A stretch of DNA of 64,000 bases from Balamuthia mandrillaris. Its lineage: Eukaryota. The stretch lies in the NCBI GenBank assembly GCA_031835245.2, contig JAVKOQ020000077.1, positions 124,001-188,000 on the forward strand. The letters run 5' to 3'. Below, piece after piece: positions 25,083-34,604 of this stretch. The stretch's first letter is position 1. Each line of letters begins with the position of its first letter. A model generated the notes under the pieces. That model was given only the letters and a program-made list of their open reading frames with translations, did not search any database and was not told the DNA's origin. A program made the position numbers and the translations under genes.

Positions 25083-28000
25083 CTGTATCTCTTGCTACCT
25101 TTGAATTTTCGTTATCAGTTTGTCAACTTTGTAAGAAAGGCAAAGTCAGCAGGGAATGATGCCTCGGAATACCTGGAGGATTATCGGTTCATACTGCGCC
25201 ACTATGAACGTCGCCTTAAAGACGAGAACAGCATTGATTTTATCGATATGCTGAGGCTGACTTTGCGGCTCTTCCAAGAACACCCTCACGTCCTTGCCTA
25301 TTATCGAGAAAAGTATCAATGGGTTCTTGTTGATGAGTTTCAGGTCTCTTTTTGTTCTTAGTTTTTTCTTTACTTTTTTCTTCTAAAAGAACAAACGAAA
25401 CAGGACACAAACAAGCTACAATATGATCTGATTTGGGCGTTGACAGAGCATTCGGGACATTTAACAGTGGTGGGCGATGATGACCAATCCATATATAATT
25501 TCAGGGGCAGCAACTCCGAGTTTATTCGCTCCCTCCACATGCGCTTTGAGGAGAAAGCCAAGGCTGCAAACCAGATTCTGCTGGAACAGAACTACAGAAG
25601 TACTCAATCCATTACGGACTGTGCCAACGCTTTGATCAAGGTTTTGATTAAATGCTTCTGTATAGCCCATCTTTCCCCTAACTTGACAACAAAACACCCA
25701 ACTTTATTATTAGCAAAATTGTAAGCGTCTGGAAAAGAAGATGTGGACAGACAACGAGAAAGGAGCACCCGTTCAAGTCATAGAATGCCAAACGGCAGAA
25801 GAGGAATCAGACTTCGTGGTAAAGTGCATCACGCATCTTGTGGCAGAAGGCCAACGCTCTTTTGCCGACTTTGCAATCCTCTTCCGAGCTCGCAACATAG
25901 CACCTGGTTTCGAGCAGAAAATGAAACGACTAGGTATTCCCTTTAAGACCGGAGGAAACAAATCGCTGCAAGACAGAGCCGTCGTTAGGGACATTCTTTC
26001 GTATGTTACTTTATTGATCGATCCGAAGAACGACAAAGCGTTCAAAAGAGTGCTAAATGTACCTGCTAGAGGGTTAAGCAAAGGTTCGTTAAACTGTTAT
26101 CTTTGCTTACCTTTCCACTTTTTGTTCTGTTTCTCATTTCTTTAACAAAGGGGCATTTGCTTATTTGGCACAATTGGCAACGGATATGAGCGAGCAACAA
26201 CAAGCCTCATCGTTATCTTCCTCCTTTTCTTCATCCCAGTCTATCTGCTTCTCGCCAACCAGTAACAAAAAGCGAAACAAAATCAGCTTGTACGAAGCTG
26301 CGATGCATGCTTCTGCCACACGTTTTCCTGCCGTAAACTCTCCTACCCGAACTATTTGTTTGACGCCGAAACAAAAAGAACATATGAATGGCTTTCTAAA
26401 GATGATAGAAGAAATGCAAGAGAGAATTGGACATTGCACTCTGGTGGAAGCGTTGGAGTTTGTCATCGAGAGGAGCGGTTACAAAGAACATCTTTGGAAA
26501 AAACAGAACAGAGGAAACAAAAATTCGAAAGTGAAGAACGCGAAGATGAGCAAAGTGGTTCTTCCTCATCCTTCCAAAGGAAAGAAAGAGAGTGACCAAC
26601 AACAGGAAGAAGAAGAAGAAGAAGAAGAAGAAGAAGCAGCAGATTTCGGTTGTGCGGACAGAAATCCCAAGTTACCTGGAGGAGAGCACCTCGAAGAATT
26701 GATCAATCGTGCCAAACATTTTATGCAAGACGAATGGGAAAAAGATCCTTCAGTACATAACTCAGAGAAACAGGAACAAGCAGAGAAAGCTGCAGAAGGA
26801 GAAGATAAGCAAATGGGAAAAAAGAGAAGAGAGTTCATAGGACTATTCTTGAAGTGGATAGAAGCGCAGAGTCCAGAGGAAGAAGTGGCTCCCAGCAATG
26901 CCACGCCCAAAAAAAAAGAATCCAACAAGAAAAAAACTAAACAGAGCGATGTGGTTGCTGTTACAACCATCCATCAAGCTAAAGGTTTGGAATGGCCTGT
27001 CGGTATGTCTTTTTTGCTATCTCTATTCATTCTTGCCCTCTGTCTTCCTTTCAAACGTAATCCAAGACTGTTATAACTTCTGTTACACTAGTGTTTGTGG
27101 TGCGGTTCAATGAAGGTGTAATACCTGTTATTCACCGCACATCACCAAGCGGATCGTTGAGTGGCGGAGCTGACAACAAAACAGAAATGCTGCGTAGTCA
27201 CGTTGAGGAAGAACGAAGACTTGCTTATGGTTCTCTCTCTCTCTCTCTCTCTCTGTGCGAACTATTTTTATTGCTGTTGTTGTACTTCATTGTTCTTTCT
27301 AAAATGTGGCTAATTGTTCTGTTTCTCCTTTTGCGTAACAAACTTAGTGGCAATGACAAGAGCAAGACAAGTTCTTTACTTGACCTACACAAAGACGAAT
27401 ACGTTTAACAAACCCTCTCCTCAATCTCAGTTCTTACAGGATTTGCCACCCGATCGAATAGAAACGAGCATAGCTACAATGCACTTGTCTCAGTTCAGCG
27501 CAGCTTCCATCGCGAGAAAAGGCGGTTCTGTTAAACGCACTTCAGCTTCTTCTGTTGGACGTCAACTTTGTTTTGGAGAAGACAACAAGGAAGATAAAGA
27601 GAAGGAGAGAGAAAAAGAGCAGGAACATCAACAACAAACTTTTCTTACAGCAAGACAATGCATGGCGCAATCCTCCCAAAAGCAACAGGAGAAGGAAGAG
27701 AAAAAAGGAACTAACAAAGCTGAAGATACTACCAAGAAGAAAAATACTTCCTCTTCCAAACGAAAAACTACCATTGCTTCTTCTTCTTCTTCTTCTTCTT
27801 CTTCTTCTTCGAGCACAGACAACAAGGGTTCTTTCGCTGCATTCTTTGCTCCACGCAAACCTGTAATAGCCGTTCAAGACAAAAACAACGACCAACGAAG
27901 TAACGTGGCGGAAAACTCGAAAAACAGTAACGGCAACAAAGAGACAATAACTCTATCGCAGAAAAGCTCTTCAGCACCTACCAGAGCGAAACGTGGAAAA

Positions 28001-30095: not shown

Positions 30096-30267
30096 GTGTG
30101 TTTACAATTTTTTTCGCCAAAGAGAAGCACAAGAGAGATGGATGCGTTGAATTAGTTGAATTACACTTTTTTTACGTCGACAAAATTTTCTACGAAGAAT
30201 TTGATGAAACCTCTTCTCTTCCTCTCTCTCCTCGTGTCGTCGTCTGATTGTTGTTTCCTCCGTGTTA

Positions 30268-31477
30268 TGGGGCAATTCAAGTCAGCGGGTGACCCCCCTG
30301 CGCAATACACCGACGAAGTACGTTTCGTACTGCGCCACTATGAACGTCGTTTAAAGGAAGAATAGATTTTGTAGATATGTTGCGACTCACTTTGCAACTT
30401 TTCAAAGCACATCCCTCCGTTCTTGATGCTGTTAGAAAAAAGTACAAGTGGATTCTTGTCGATGAGGCTCAGGTATCAGTTCTGGCGCTGTTATAACTTG
30501 CCGTCGTTCTGCACTCTGTCATCTTGCTTGTTCATGTTGAGTGCATTTGGTGTTTCAAGTTGACTTTGTTAACCAAAAGCAAAAAACAGGATATGAACAA
30601 GCTACAACACGATCTGATCTGGGCGATGACGGAGCATTCAGTTAACAATGGTAGGAGACGACGATCAAGCCATCTATAACTTCAGAGGCGGCAGCTCAGA
30701 GTACATTCGCTCCCTCCAACAGCGTTTTGAGGAGAAAGGCAAGACCGTAAACCAGATTCTTCTGGAACAGAACTACCGAAGTTCCAAATCCATTACCAAT
30801 TGTGTGAACGCTTTAATCCAGGTTATTATTAGTATTATTTTTTTTCATTCTGTCTTGCTTGGTTTGCCTGGCTGAACACCATATGCAAACAAAAGCAAAA
30901 TCAGAAACGACTGAACAAGAAAATGTGGACGAAGAATGAGCAAGGGTCAGCTGTTCACGTAATCGCGTGTGCTTCGCCAGAGGAAGAAGCTGACTTTGTA
31001 GCACAGTGCATCCTGCATATCAAGACACAAGGCCAACTTACATTGCTGACTTTGCAATCCTCTTCAGAGCTCGCTACGTTGAACCTTCGTTTGCACAGAA
31101 ATTTAAACAACTGGACATTCCGTTTTTGACCCGAACGAGCCTACCACTTATGCACAAAGCTGTCGTTGAAGACGTTCTTGATTATGCTGGTTTGTTGAAT
31201 GAGCCAAAGAATGACAAAGCGTTTAAATGTGTGCTTAATGTTCCTGCAAGAGAGTTAGGCCAAGGTATGTAGTAATGCTTCCTTATGTTTTCCATCTTCT
31301 AATCCTATTTTTGCAGTTGTTTATCCTACAAAAAGCGACATTGGCTTACTTAAAACACCCAACCACAAAGTTGATTCAGAAAGCGAAGCAACAAGCACGG
31401 GCTTCCATTGCATCATCCTCGCATTCAACAAGCCATTTCAGCAAACGAAACGACGTCAGTTTGTATGAAGCTGCTAT
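30268..31477 (+). pseudogene. Decayed partial tandem duplicate of the UvrD-like helicase (motifs II-IV region)
   Basis: Parallels about 25140-26305: RHYERRLK, WILVDEAQ, VGDDDQAIYNFRG, LLEQNYRS, ADFAILFRAR, PKNDKAFK.VLNVPAR, SLYEAA. Introns are at the same three positions. Small frame-disrupting deletions near 30362, 30640 and 31038. Lacks motifs I, V and VI. Confidence 0.88.
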
Positions 31478-32461
31478 CTAGGGGTCTGGTGAAAATTTTC
31501 CTGACGTCAAAGCGTCCTCCACACGCACCCTTAGCTTGAAGCGAAAACAAAAGGAGAAGATAAGGGCTAGAGGACGAGCTGACACTCCGCGGGGCGGAAC
31601 CTCTTCCCGAGGTGCTACCCAGCGATAGCAGATTAATCCACACCCGCTGGGGCAAGTACTACTTGGCCATACCGATGCCTTTGGAGGGGAGCGATAATCA
31701 AGCTCCCTCCTCCTCTAGGGTGCCCAAGGTAGTGGCGATCGACCCAGGAGTGCGCACCTTTATTACTTGTTATGTGGGTCCCGAAGGCAAGGCTTACGAG
31801 TGGGGACGGAACGATATCGGACGCATCTATCGTATTTGCCACTATCTGGACGACCTCCAGAGCCGATGGGGCCAACCAGGCGTCAAAGCCAGACAGCGCT
31901 ATCGCATGCGAAGGGCAGCGGCCCGAATGAGGGAACGTATTCGCAACCTGGTGGACGAGGTACACAAGAAGATGGCCCTCTGGCTGGTCAAGAAACACGA
32001 CCTGGTGCTGCTGCCCAAGTTCGATACCAGCAACATGGTGCTCAGGCGGAGCGGGAGACGTATCCCAAGCAAGACCGCCAGAGCCATGCTGGGTTGGGCG
32101 CACTACCGCTTTCGCATGCGCTTGCTGAACAAGGCCAGGGAGTACCCCCACTGCAGGGTGGAGATCGTGGACGAGCACTACACCTCCAAGACCTGTGGAA
32201 GATGCGGACGTATCCACCAGAAACTGGGAGGGAAGAAGGTCTTCCGTTGCCCCCGTTGTCGCCTGGAAGCAGACAGAGACATCCATGCTGCCAGGAACGT
32301 CCTTTTGTGTTTCCTGGCACATCAGGACATCATTGTGGCGAAAGGTAGGGAGCTGTACGGACAGAGTCCGGCAGCATTGGGTCCTACACCCGTGAATGCA
32401 TCCACCCATTGTGGTGCATTAGTGCAAAGATTTGCAAAATGATGTGCAAGTTTAATGTAGG
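31478..32461 (+). mobile_element. 5'-truncated Fanzor2 / IS607-like element remnant
   Basis: Abrupt switch from helicase-derived sequence to intronless GC-richer sequence at about 31478, a TnpB-like ORF, and a structured 3' end finishing in GTAGG at 32461. No transposase seen in the window. Confidence 0.75.
31564..32442 (+). CDS. Fanzor: Fanzor2 (TnpB-like RNA-guided RuvC endonuclease), N-terminally truncated
   Basis: Open frame from 31564: AEPLPEVLPSDSRLIHTRWGKYYLAIP (WED strands), VVAIDPGVRTF (RuvC-I Asp), RIRNLVDEVHKK, VLLPKFDT (Pro at the canonical RuvC-II Glu), IVDEHYTSKTCGRCG (alternative Glu and Zn finger), FRCPRC, DRDIHAARN (RuvC-III Asp). In-frame stops at 31537 and 31561; first ATG only at 31675. 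Confidence 0.92.
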   Translation, partial: GLEDELTLRGAEPLPEVLPSDSRLIHTRWGKYYLAIPMPLEGSDNQAPSSSRVPKVVAIDPGVRTFITCYVGPEGKAYEWGRNDIGRIYRICHYLDDLQSRWGQPGVKARQRYRMRRAAARMRERIRNLVDEVHKKMALWLVKKHDLVLLPKFDTSNMVLRRSGRRIPSKTARAMLGWAHYRFRMRLLNKAREYPHCRVEIVDEHYTSKTCGRCGRIHQKLGGKKVFRCPRCRLEADRDIHAARNVLLCFLAHQDIIVAKGRELYGQSPAALGPTPVNASTHCGALVQRFAK

Positions 32462-32481
32462 CGTCTCCCGCTCAACACTTT
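32370..32481 (+). ncRNA. Putative Fanzor omegaRNA (fRNA) scaffold plus flank-derived guide
   Basis: Stem GGGT/ACCC (32379-32391) with loop CCTAC complementary to GTAGG (32457-32461). Hairpin AATGCA-T-CCAC-CCATT-GTGG-TGCATT (32395-32420). Hairpin TGCAA/TTGCA (32423-32436). Overlaps the ORF 3' end as in TnpB/Fanzor loci. The 5' boundary is unknown. Confidence 0.65.
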
Positions 32482-32696
32482 TTGGCTCGCGATTCCCATG
32501 GCTGGTTATCTTTTTTTGTCGACGATTCATCGAATAGTATTATTTGGGTTAATCGATACTATTTTCTAATATTGTAATTATTGTCCTCATATATCGATAT
32601 TTTTCGGTTAGGATTATCCACGCCGATCAATTTAATCGAAATTTCGTATATCCAACATGAAAATAGAAACGAGGAAGAGGACACCAAACATCAAGC

Positions 32697-34010
32697 ATGG
32701 ACGCGGCGAGTATGCTGCCCACGGAGATGTGGTACGCAGTGCTGGTCGAACACCTGCCCAAGGGGGCCAGAGGAGTAGTTGCCACCGTTTGTTGGACTTG
32801 GCGAGAAGTAATCAAGGGATTAGCCCCACCAGCGCAAGAACGTAAGATATCACGAACCTACTGCTGCGAGCACACTCTGGACCTAGCGAAATGGGCCGTT
32901 TATTACGAAATCGACTCCATGAGGAACCTCTACGACAACGACTTTATGTACGGTGCCATTTCTGTTGGCAACCTCGACGTCCTCAGATGGCTGGTGGACG
33001 AAATGGGCTGTCAAGCCCATGACGAAGGGGAGTATCTCTATCGCGCCGCCGAGTGCGGTCATTTGCACGTGCTGCAATGGCTCGTCGACGAACACGAGTG
33101 CACGATGTGCGAGACGGCTTGCGAATTTGCGGCACACGGGGGCCACCTGGATGTTTTAAAATGGGCCAAAACACAAGGATGCAATATAACGAAAGAAGTG
33201 TGCCATGAGGCCATCCGAAAAAACCGCATGGACATGTTGGTGTGGGCAACCATTGAAGGAGACGCTTGCTTGGATGCCGAAGCCTTGTCCATGGCCGTGG
33301 AGACTGGCAACTTTGAGTTGGTGGCTTGGCTTGTCGATGAAGCCGAGTGTCCATGGGACGAGACAGCTTCTTCGACAGCGGCCAGGAGTGGCAACTTGAA
33401 CATATTGCGCTGGTTATTGGAAAACGGTTGCCCTAGCAGCAGCTCTGATTTGTTCGTGGAGGCAGCAGCCGGGGGTCATATAGACACAATGCAGTGGTTG
33501 CTACATGAAGGATATCAATGGGATGAGGACACGTGTGCCAGTGCCGCACAACATGGACAGTTGGAGGCATTGCGATGGGCACGTAGTAACGGCTGTCCTT
33601 GGGACGAACAAACCTCCATCAACGCCATCGAACATGGACGAATGGACATACTTAAGTGGTCGCGGAGCATGGGATGTCCGTTGAGCGATCGCGAGTGCGC
33701 ACGCGCGGCCGCCAGAGGTCATACCGAAATTCTTCGCTGGCTGAGGGAGAACGGGTGTCCTTGGGACGGACAAACCTGTTTCAACGCCGCGAGATACGGA
33801 CACCTCGAAACGCTCGCTTGGGCACGAGAAAACGGTTGCAATTGGAATGCCGAACGTTGTAGAAACGCAGCTGGTATACATAGACATCGCCGCGTTGTAC
33901 GCTATATAACAAACACCCTCCGGCAGGAAAGTGGCTTGCCCACACGCAACAAGAGCGAATCGCATAGACGCAGAAAAAGAAGAAGAATGAATAAAAACAG
34001 TTTTGTTTGA
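32697..34010 (+). CDS. Intronless F-box-like + ankyrin-like repeat protein (giant-virus-style)
   Basis: LPTEMWYAVLVEHLP...ATVCWTWREV followed by about 12 repeats of GCPWD..TC..AA..GHL..L.W; basic NLS-like tail RRRKRRR. Confidence 0.9.
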   Translation: MDAASMLPTEMWYAVLVEHLPKGARGVVATVCWTWREVIKGLAPPAQERKISRTYCCEHTLDLAKWAVYYEIDSMRNLYDNDFMYGAISVGNLDVLRWLVDEMGCQAHDEGEYLYRAAECGHLHVLQWLVDEHECTMCETACEFAAHGGHLDVLKWAKTQGCNITKEVCHEAIRKNRMDMLVWATIEGDACLDAEALSMAVETGNFELVAWLVDEAECPWDETASSTAARSGNLNILRWLLENGCPSSSSDLFVEAAAGGHIDTMQWLLHEGYQWDEDTCASAAQHGQLEALRWARSNGCPWDEQTSINAIEHGRMDILKWSRSMGCPLSDRECARAAARGHTEILRWLRENGCPWDGQTCFNAARYGHLETLAWARENGCNWNAERCRNAAGIHRHRRVVRYITNTLRQESGLPTRNKSESHRRRKRRRMNKNSFV

Positions 34011-34230
34011 TGCCAACCTGATGTGTTTTTTCTTTTCTTTCGCCCATGCATTGAAAGTACGAAGTCAGAGAAATGCAGGACCCGCCCGTGCTGCCCATTC
34101 TGCCCGCTCACCGCATCCACCCCGACGAGGACTGGGACAACCCCACCCTGCCGGAGGGTGTTTGTTATATAGCGTACAACGCGGCGATGTCTATGTATAC
34201 CAGCTGCGTTTCTACAACGTTCGGCATTCC
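33844..34230. repeat. Perfect 84-bp inverted repeat (33844-33927 / 34147-34230, 219-bp spacer)
   Basis: GGAATGCCGAACG...CCCTCCGGCAGG is the exact reverse complement of CCTGCCGGAGGG...CGTTCGGCATTCC. Confidence 0.95.
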
Positions 34231-34604
34231 GGCCAGAGCGAGTTCCACCACCCCGAGTCCCTAATACAGCCAGCGTCCCCACGGTCTCCTGCCCTGGTTC
34301 GGTCGGGCGCCCGTCACCGCCCTCCACCCGGAGCCCATCGAGGCCCATATCCTTCACCCGGCCAAGAAGGCCGTGCACACCGCCGAGAACGTTATCAACC
34401 AAGCCTCAACAGACCAAAACGATTGGTCTTCGTCACATTCCTCTTCGCGTTCTTCTTCTTCATCTTCTTCATCGTCTTCTTTTTCTTCTTCTTCATCATC
34501 ATCTTCAGCTAGAAGACTGTTTCAATTATTTGACCTCAAGTTCGAGGGAATGTAAATAAGATTGTTTATTTTCTTCTCCACTAAAATATATTAGCTAAGG
34601 CCTG

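What the first reader, a model, noticed from the sequence alone, without database searches (positions are those of the whole stretch)
32370..32481. omegaRNA-like pseudoknot defines the element right end and a predicted guide
Seen: hairpin GGGT-CCTAC-ACCC (32379-32391) whose loop pairs with GTAGG (32457-32461), with two further hairpins between them (32395-32420 and 32423-32436), all overlapping the last codons of the ORF. Known: TnpB/Fanzor omegaRNAs derive from the element right end, form a pseudoknot next to the guide and take the guide from flanking DNA; IS607 elements recombine at GG. Inference: the element ends at GG 32460-32461 and the guide is about CGTCTCCCGCTCAACACTTT (32462-32481). 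The RNA could still load full-length Fanzor in trans.
Basis: partly seen in the sequence, partly recalled or inferred. Interest (0 to 1): 0.8.

Follow-up and report, generated by a model that had tools for sequence, protein, structure and literature searches.

The report
Fanzor guide RNA in transposon remnant
This is the tail end of a broken jumping gene, likely from an amoeba, that still carries the sequence of a predicted knotted guide RNA of a known gene-editing type, with a conserved end two bases further along than first proposed.

Summary
Real, and of a known kind. The window holds the 3' ~900 bp (31563-32463) of an IS607-type Fanzor2 element; left end, transposase and the front of the nuclease are gone. 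The 5-bp pseudoknot (32383-32387 with 32457-32461) is supported by relatives: 28 of 33 loci carry the exact complement of their own, varying, loop against 85 of 942 cross pairs. Two corrections. (1) The conserved end is not GG 32460-32461 but the CG after it (32462-32463): other copies in the organism diverge behind 32463 or 32465, conservation among relatives drops after CG, and the published active NlovFz2 scaffold has the same anchors and ends in CG. The guide is therefore predicted to start at 32464. (2) The third hairpin is 32428-32453, not 32423-32436, and a further hairpin lies at 32352-32375. The clade carries serine recombinases and shows CCG|T where left ends should lie, so it likely recombines at CG, which would explain NlovFz2's CCG TAM. 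Expression, an empty site and an intact partner nuclease were not shown.

The parts
30261..31556 (+). Partial second copy of the upstream UvrD-like helicase gene; stop codon at 31479-31481 in this haplotype
   Evidence: tblastx/blastn to 25143-26384; Pfam UvrD_C; contigs of runs X3 and X6 read C at 31481 and continue differently behind 31556
31556..31563 (.). Junction between host gene and the middle of the Fanzor gene (6 unassigned bases); inferred deletion that removed left end, TnpA and the Fanzor N-terminal half
   Evidence: Element contigs of all four runs start matching at 31563; host contigs stop at 31550-31556; no TnpA in the window
31563..32442 (+). C-terminal remnant of a Fanzor2 nuclease: RuvC-I DPG (D 31741-31743), shifted RuvC-II E (32173-32175), zinc finger, RuvC-III D (32278-32280); about 310-390 N-terminal residues of full-length relatives are missing
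   Evidence: Pfam OrfB_IS605 and Cas12f1-like_TNB; alignment A1; best PDB hit 9b0l ApmFz2, E 2.7e-20; start offsets in relatives
32049..32060 (-). 12-nt exact reverse complement of 32462-32473 (CG plus first 10 guide bases) inside the Fanzor ORF; ACG precedes the 10-nt match on the minus strand
   Evidence: null frequency 0.0012-0.0034, noticed post hoc
32352..32375 (+). Predicted omegaRNA hairpin P0, upstream of the finding; ends 3 nt before the pseudoknot hairpin as in relatives
   Evidence: pair probabilities 0.88-1.0; same position in constrained folds of relatives (read by eye)
32379..32391 (+). Pseudoknot hairpin; loop 32383-32387 is the 5' pseudoknot strand
32395..32420 (+). Predicted hairpin P2 (variable in sequence among relatives)
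32423..32426 (+). Conserved TGCA motif between P2 and P3
   Evidence: also in the NlovFz2 scaffold
32428..32453 (+). Predicted hairpin P3
   Evidence: pair probabilities 0.71-0.99; a helix of 6 or more pairs with the same geometry in 17 of 28 loci
32457..32461 (+). 3' pseudoknot strand
32462..32463 (+). Conserved terminal CG: end of scaffold and of shared element sequence; inferred crossover dinucleotide
32464..32484 (+). Predicted guide from flanking DNA (15-21 nt; a run of five T at 32479-32483)
   Evidence: conservation lost here; NlovFz2 native guide 21 nt; junction 32398-32800 spanned by one X1 contig with 0 differences
32697..34010 (+). Ankyrin-repeat gene 234 nt downstream of the element end (host neighbour)
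   Evidence: Pfam

Best explanation
The locus is the 3' remnant of an IS607-type Fanzor2 element whose right end encodes a predicted NlovFz2-type guide RNA: a five-pair pseudoknot that covaries among relatives, followed by a conserved CG, after which the guide likely begins at 32464. Shown: remnant anatomy, intact DPG / shifted-E / D residues, covariation, CG end, serine recombinase genes in relatives. Inferred (about 0.65): the parent element was inserted without target duplication by its serine recombinase at the CG of a CCG target, one CG being left at each junction, and the right-hand CG was taken into the RNA scaffold as the fixed flanking G is in ISXfa1; Fanzor2 with this RNA would cut CCG-flanked empty sites and so restore the element by repair. 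Inferred (about 0.85): this copy was later cut down by a deletion joining a UvrD-like gene copy to mid-Fanzor, so it can neither move nor make a working nuclease. Whether its RNA is still made and loads a nuclease in trans is untested (about 0.3).
For: Own-loop complement in 28 of 33 loci vs 85 of 942 cross pairs, 13 different loop 5-mers. CG follows 20 of 29 matches; information 0.91 and 1.5 bits at C and G, about 0.1 after. Copies in the organism diverge behind 32463 (X1, X7) or 32465 (X1, X6). Related pairs L092/L096 and L093/L100 lose identity within 1-3 bases after CG. The NlovFz2 scaffold in the supplement of PMC10432273 has the same anchors (GGG-T-CCTTT-CCC, TGCA, AAAT, AAAGG) and ends in CG (compared by eye); its TAM is CCG. 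Resolvase plus HTH domains in 4 of 4 upstream ORFs tested; TnpA hits in 12 of 27 relatives with the pseudoknot. CCGT is the top 4-mer 156-238 nt upstream of TnpA, 13 of 21 loci vs 15.6% of 883 background tiles. 37 of 38 CG-labelled rows fall in one 60-row group (SH-aLRT 89), apart from GG/AG-ending rows (quick tree).
Against: No RNA reads and no empty-site allele were examined, so expression, RNA ends and the pre-insertion site are open. No pair of CG-clade copies with different left flanks was seen (both outputs cut), so the left end is statistical only; the window for CCGT was chosen after seeing four loci, 8 of 21 loci lack it, and two that have it (L120, L128) end in GG and AG on the right. 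Seven of 44 labelled rows in the clade end in CA, TG, GG or AG (labels by eye). C 32462 may be kept partly as a sixth pseudoknot pair rather than as a crossover base (15 G-C, 2 A-U, 8 unpaired; unpaired in the window). Two of the four listed loose-end rows lie at 32465, not 32463. The pair counts are on rows chosen for having the complement. No listed contig spans the left junction (139 records not shown). The L106 flank search returned only itself.
Confidence: 0.8

Rival explanations
1. One reading: canonical GG-type IS607 end at 32460-32461 with the guide starting at 32462.
For: GG is present in the window; published IS607 elements mostly end in GG and in ApmFz2 the pseudoknot strand abuts the guide.
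Against: GG in only 12 of 27 loci, CG follows in most; no listed loose end behind 32461; NlovFz2 scaffold ends in CG.
Confidence: 0.05
2. The RNA boundary is right, but CG is conserved for RNA reasons (sixth pseudoknot pair, protein contact) or as a short target duplication of another transposase, and not as a serine-recombinase crossover site.
For: Column 44:223 pairs in 17 of 25 rows with 2 double changes; ApmFz2 makes base contacts to the pseudoknot; some Fanzor2s were captured by cut-and-paste transposons; the NlovFz2 paper found no transposase.
Against: Serine recombinases lie directly upstream in the clade; CCG|T enrichment at the expected left-end distance matches the measured CCG TAM.
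Confidence: 0.25
3. The structure is a fossil: inherited from the parent element, but this copy is never transcribed or has no nuclease to load, so it does nothing today.
For: 5'-truncated, no TnpA; closest fetched proteins are a 93%-identical fragment inside a chimeric gene model and then 63% or less; 0 of 11 gene models with the same species label show the RuvC-III motif together with the others.
Against: Pseudoknot and stems are undamaged; many related contigs exist in four studies (61, 44, 34 and 22 laid); gene models are unreliable for such elements. This rival is compatible with the best explanation on structure and differs only on present function.
Confidence: 0.6
4. The motifs are chance complementarity in the tail of a transposase ORF.
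For: Single-sequence folding z of -1.06 for the stated region; no Rfam family.
Against: Covariation control; model R1 finds one hit in the 64-kb window and 33 in relatives, all on the plus strand just after the nuclease gene, including 9 loci not in its training set, two of them near-duplicates of training rows.
Confidence: 0.01

Closest known systems
NlovFz2 and its omegaRNA (Naegleria lovaniensis; PMC10432273)
   Same: Scaffold anchors and order, five-pair loop/3'-strand complement, terminal CG (by eye); GC-rich 3-nt TAM expected (CCG measured for NlovFz2).
   Different: Different loop sequence (CCTAC vs CCTTT), shorter P3, truncated nuclease here; the paper reports no transposase for NlovFz2, whereas this clade has IS607 TnpA. 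Protein identity to NlovFz2 was not computed.
ApmFz2 / ISvMimi (PDB 9B0L; PMC11832414)
   Same: Fanzor2 fold family (E 2.7e-20); pseudoknot next to the guide.
   Different: GGG TAM, 205-nt scaffold; its N-terminal, REC and WED parts that read TAM and pseudoknot are absent from this remnant.
IS607 family / ISXfa1 TnpB (PMC10711439) and IS607EU (PMC13565253)
   Same: Serine recombinase plus TnpB-like gene, fixed flanking base built into the RNA scaffold, pseudoknot.
   Different: Described as inserting at GG; this clade mostly ends in CG.
Fanzor 'ghost' loci (PMC10432273)
   Same: omegaRNA kept without a working nuclease gene; proposed to act in trans.
   Different: Ghosts keep both ends as a family; this copy is a one-ended deletion product.

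Membership tests
Fanzor2 | RuvC-I DPG motif | tested here: met
   VVAIDPG; definition
Fanzor2 | Catalytic E shifted to six residues before the zinc finger, and RuvC-III D | tested here: met
   DEHYTSKTC and DRD
Fanzor2 | Eukaryotic host | tested here: met
   Intron-split neighbours; 93%-identical fragment labelled Balamuthia mandrillaris; the window's own species is inferred from that label
Fanzor2 | Complete N-terminal, REC and WED domains | tested here: not met
   About 310-390 residues missing: a remnant of a member, not a working member
Fanzor2/TnpB omegaRNA | Pseudoknot between an apical loop and bases next to the guide | tested here: met
   (comparative, not experimental)
Fanzor2/TnpB omegaRNA | Conserved scaffold at the element right end followed by variable flank | tested here: met
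Fanzor2/TnpB omegaRNA | Expressed small RNA extending 14-21 nt into the flank | not tested
   No RNA reads were laid on the region
Fanzor2/TnpB omegaRNA | Guides TAM-dependent DNA cleavage | not testable with these tools
   Needs a bench assay
IS607 / IS607EU | Serine recombinase TnpA upstream of the nuclease | tested here: inconclusive
   Absent from the window, present in 12 of 27 relatives with the same RNA; not examined in the organism's other copies
IS607 / IS607EU | Ends and insertion at GG | tested here: not met
   Conserved end is CG; the review says most members end in GG, so this marks a variant and lowers 'canonical IS607'
IS607 / IS607EU | No terminal inverted repeats, no target duplication | tested here: inconclusive
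   Left end missing in the window; no empty site seen

The most novel reading that the evidence does not exclude
The remnant is a standing guide against its own transposon family: its terminal CG plus first 10 guide bases match exactly a site inside the family's Fanzor gene (32049-32060, minus strand, preceded by ACG, one base from CCG), so the RNA could steer an intact Fanzor2 onto element copies or fold back on its own precursor and mask the guide. That would be a Fanzor locus turned into an anti-transposon or self-regulating guide.
Probability: 0.05. Interest if true: 0.75.

Novelty: new member of a known kind. Interest (0 to 1): 0.35.

Why it matters
The locus itself is an ordinary decayed member of a known class. 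Two by-products are useful. First, the comparison gives a covariation-backed layout (P0, pseudoknot hairpin, P2, TGCA, P3, AAT, five-pair strand, CG) for the omegaRNA family to which the editing tool NlovFz2 appears to belong, and about 30 natural scaffolds with correct guide starts. Second, it links that family to IS607 serine recombinases and to a CG end with a probable CCG target, against the published statement that IS607 elements insert strictly at GG and filling the gap that no transposase was seen for NlovFz2. If confirmed, recombinase crossover site and nuclease TAM changed together in a eukaryotic clade, which is directly testable. I found no paper stating this in searches; figures of the papers, Repbase and subscription papers were not seen and may hold it.

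Tried and rejected
No whole genome is held for the window. Rfam scan: nothing. Single-protein scan of viral contigs: 8 pattern matches, none a relative. No second copy of the element or RNA in the window and no second target for the 16-nt guide at up to 3 mismatches. Two gapped consensus scans of viral contigs gave 4 loci with no Fanzor or TnpA, judged chance. Search for homologues spanning the L106 insertion site returned only the flank protein itself; the reading frames on the two sides of L106 are compatible with a CCG/CG joint but that is a one-in-three coincidence, and the ORF-continuity scan did not discriminate among candidates. L032 and L159 were dropped as chance motif hits; 8 of 29 loci were dropped for lacking the TnpA start or enough left flank; L091, L107 and L139 were left out of alignment A2 (25 of 28 loci). 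One search ranked hits by CG and was replaced by the unbiased. Reading the loose ends before 32368 and 32427 as short deletion derivatives was set aside, because a second, about 52% identical Fanzor2 family carries the same species label and could share the terminus. The careful tree did not finish; only the quick tree is cited. The bacterial promoter scan is uninformative for a eukaryote. Earlier scan findings: none returned.

Full report
Observation. The strings named in the finding are at the given coordinates. They sit at the end of an ORF (31612-32442) with Pfam OrfB_IS605 and Cas12f1-like_TNB hits. The ORF has the two marks that PMC10711439 (passages, part 4 of 7 of the text, and supplement part 1 read; figures not seen) gives for Fanzors: DPG in RuvC-I and the catalytic E six residues before the zinc finger; the RuvC-III D is present too. 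Its best solved relative is ApmFz2, 9b0l. Folding of the single sequence is unremarkable for the stated region (z -1.06) and moderate when 30 nt upstream are added (z -2.55, 5 of 200 shuffles). Rfam has no family for it.

Context. The neighbours are intron-split eukaryotic genes: a UvrD-like helicase, a partial second copy of it (30261-31556) and an ankyrin-repeat gene. A gene model labelled Balamuthia mandrillaris holds a 93%-identical piece of this Fanzor, so the host is likely that amoeba; this is inferred from the label. Contigs from four studies of one organism show the family is multi-copy (61, 44, 34 and 22 records laid; depth is not a copy number). Element contigs begin to match at 31563 in all four runs, and host contigs of X3 and X6 leave the window at 31550-31556, so 31556/31563 is read as a deletion joint. 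No listed record spans that joint (139 records were not shown), so an assembly error is not excluded. About 310-390 residues of full-length relatives are missing and no TnpA is in the window. The right junction is spanned by one X1 contig without differences (32398-32800).

Is the pseudoknot real? An alignment of close homologues fetched 80 viral and 80 metagenome loci. After removing near-duplicates, 120 loci including the window had enough downstream DNA; 33 had a hairpin anchor defined without using the 3' strand (the pattern was written after looking at the sequences). In 28 of these 33 the exact complement of the locus's own five loop bases lies 40-150 nt downstream; loops taken from other loci do so in 85 of 942 trials; 13 different 5-mers occur. 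On 25 of these loci, four of the five pairs show double changes and one never varies; none of 500 shuffles and none of six slid registers approach the score, and RNAalifold returns this helix alone; both results lean on rows chosen for having the complement. A model built from them hits the window once and 33 places in 99 loci, all just after the nuclease gene, nine of them outside the training set. The other 87 of 120 loci lack this anchor; many are more distant, prokaryote-type elements with other ends.

Where does the element end? Around 27 unique matches, the base before the last G of the strand is A in 15 and G in 12, so GG is not the conserved feature. The next two bases are C in 21 and G in 24 of 27, and from the third base on there is about 0.1 bit. 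In the organism, listed loose ends fall behind 32463 (X1, X7; two contigs each) and behind 32465 (X1, X6; two contigs each, same consensus), none behind 32461; 62 rows were not shown. L092/L096 and L093/L100 part within 1-3 bases after CG. The NlovFz2 scaffold used for cleavage and editing in PMC10432273 (passages and supplement file 4 seen; file 2 unreadable) shows the same anchors in the same order and ends in CG, compared by eye. So the scaffold likely ends at 32463 and the guide starts at 32464; NlovFz2's native guide is 21 nt. Most other copies carry small deletions at 32426 and near 32439, in the P3 base and loop.

Which transposon? Four of four upstream ORFs tested are HTH plus resolvase (three with an HTH hit), and 12 of 27 relatives with the pseudoknot have a TnpA hit, many of the rest being short contigs. 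This agrees with PMC3627910 (passages and section 13) that Fanzor2 goes with IS607-like serine recombinases. A 2026 review (PMC13565253, passages) says IS607 elements integrate strictly at GG and mostly end in GG. Here 37 of 38 CG-labelled rows group in a 60-row clade with SH-aLRT 89 in a quick tree of 121 rows; seven labelled rows of the clade end otherwise and 16 were not labelled. Upstream of TnpA, CCGT is the most enriched 4-mer at 156-238 nt (13 of 21 loci, background 15.6%, binomial p 2e-6 before correcting for 256 words; window chosen post hoc). With NlovFz2's measured CCG TAM this suggests insertion at the CG of CCG, but no left end or empty site was seen directly.

Mechanism. Shown: anatomy, covariation, CG boundary, recombinase association in relatives. 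From established work: such RNAs load the nuclease, the pseudoknot is needed for activity and contacts WED and RuvC, and the complex cuts the TAM-flanked empty site to restore the element. Inferred: crossover at CG, TAM CCG, later truncation. Untested: expression, and any action in trans. The remnant protein lacks the parts that read TAM and RNA in ApmFz2 (PMC11832414, passages and supplement search). No intact close partner was fetched: apart from the 93% fragment the best identity is 63%, and none of 11 gene models with the same species label shows all catalytic motifs, though such models are unreliable. PMC10530073 and PMC13599430 (passages) added no boundary data.

An oddity. CG plus the first 10 guide bases are the exact reverse complement of 32049-32060 in the Fanzor ORF, with ACG before the 10-nt match; random window 22-mers do this at 0.0012-0.0034, and none of 28 relatives exceeds 10 bases. 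Contigs of X3, X6 and X7 have no differences across that site. It was noticed post hoc and is most likely chance, but is the basis of the novel case.

Verdict. New member of a known kind, interest 0.35; the clade-level CG/CCG inference is the part worth following. Searches for it in print: (listings and abstract starts); none of the papers listed holds the phrase 'CG dinucleotide'. Figures, Repbase entries and subscription papers were not seen.

Noticed in passing
window 32049-32060 and 32462-32473: Exact 12-nt inverted match between the scaffold end plus guide seed and the element's own ORF, with ACG before the seed match.
   Followed up: partly
window 30261-31556 vs 25143-26384: Diverged partial duplicate of a UvrD-like helicase gene; this haplotype has a stop at 31479-31481 that two other studies' contigs lack.
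   Followed up: partly
window 32376-32393: The RNA hairpin is read through as protein tail in many homologues: 14 of 120 end with an LGLTP-like and 3 of 120 with a GAYP-like motif, a possible protein-level marker for this RNA family.
   Followed up: partly
window 32479-32483: A run of five T starts 15 nt into the predicted guide and could set the RNA's 3' end.
   Followed up: no
P0236, P0242-P0250: A second Fanzor2 family (about 52% identical) with the same species label; all ten gene models lack a complete set of catalytic motifs, several with frameshift-like tails.
   Followed up: partly
L001:1535-3259, L083:110-1930, L106:1906-3834: The Fanzor ORF stays open through most of the overlapping TnpA gene in another frame, giving 575-643 aa ORFs.
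   Followed up: no
L005/L150/L154, L008-L012, L048-L054, L101/L104: Other IS607-type groups in the fetched loci end in AG(T), GCA, CCG or AG, so non-GG ends may be common.
   Followed up: no
window 33781-34402: Sequence near the end of the ankyrin gene appears repeated on the opposite strand (shared peptide in ORFs 32697-34010 and 33902-34402).
   Followed up: no
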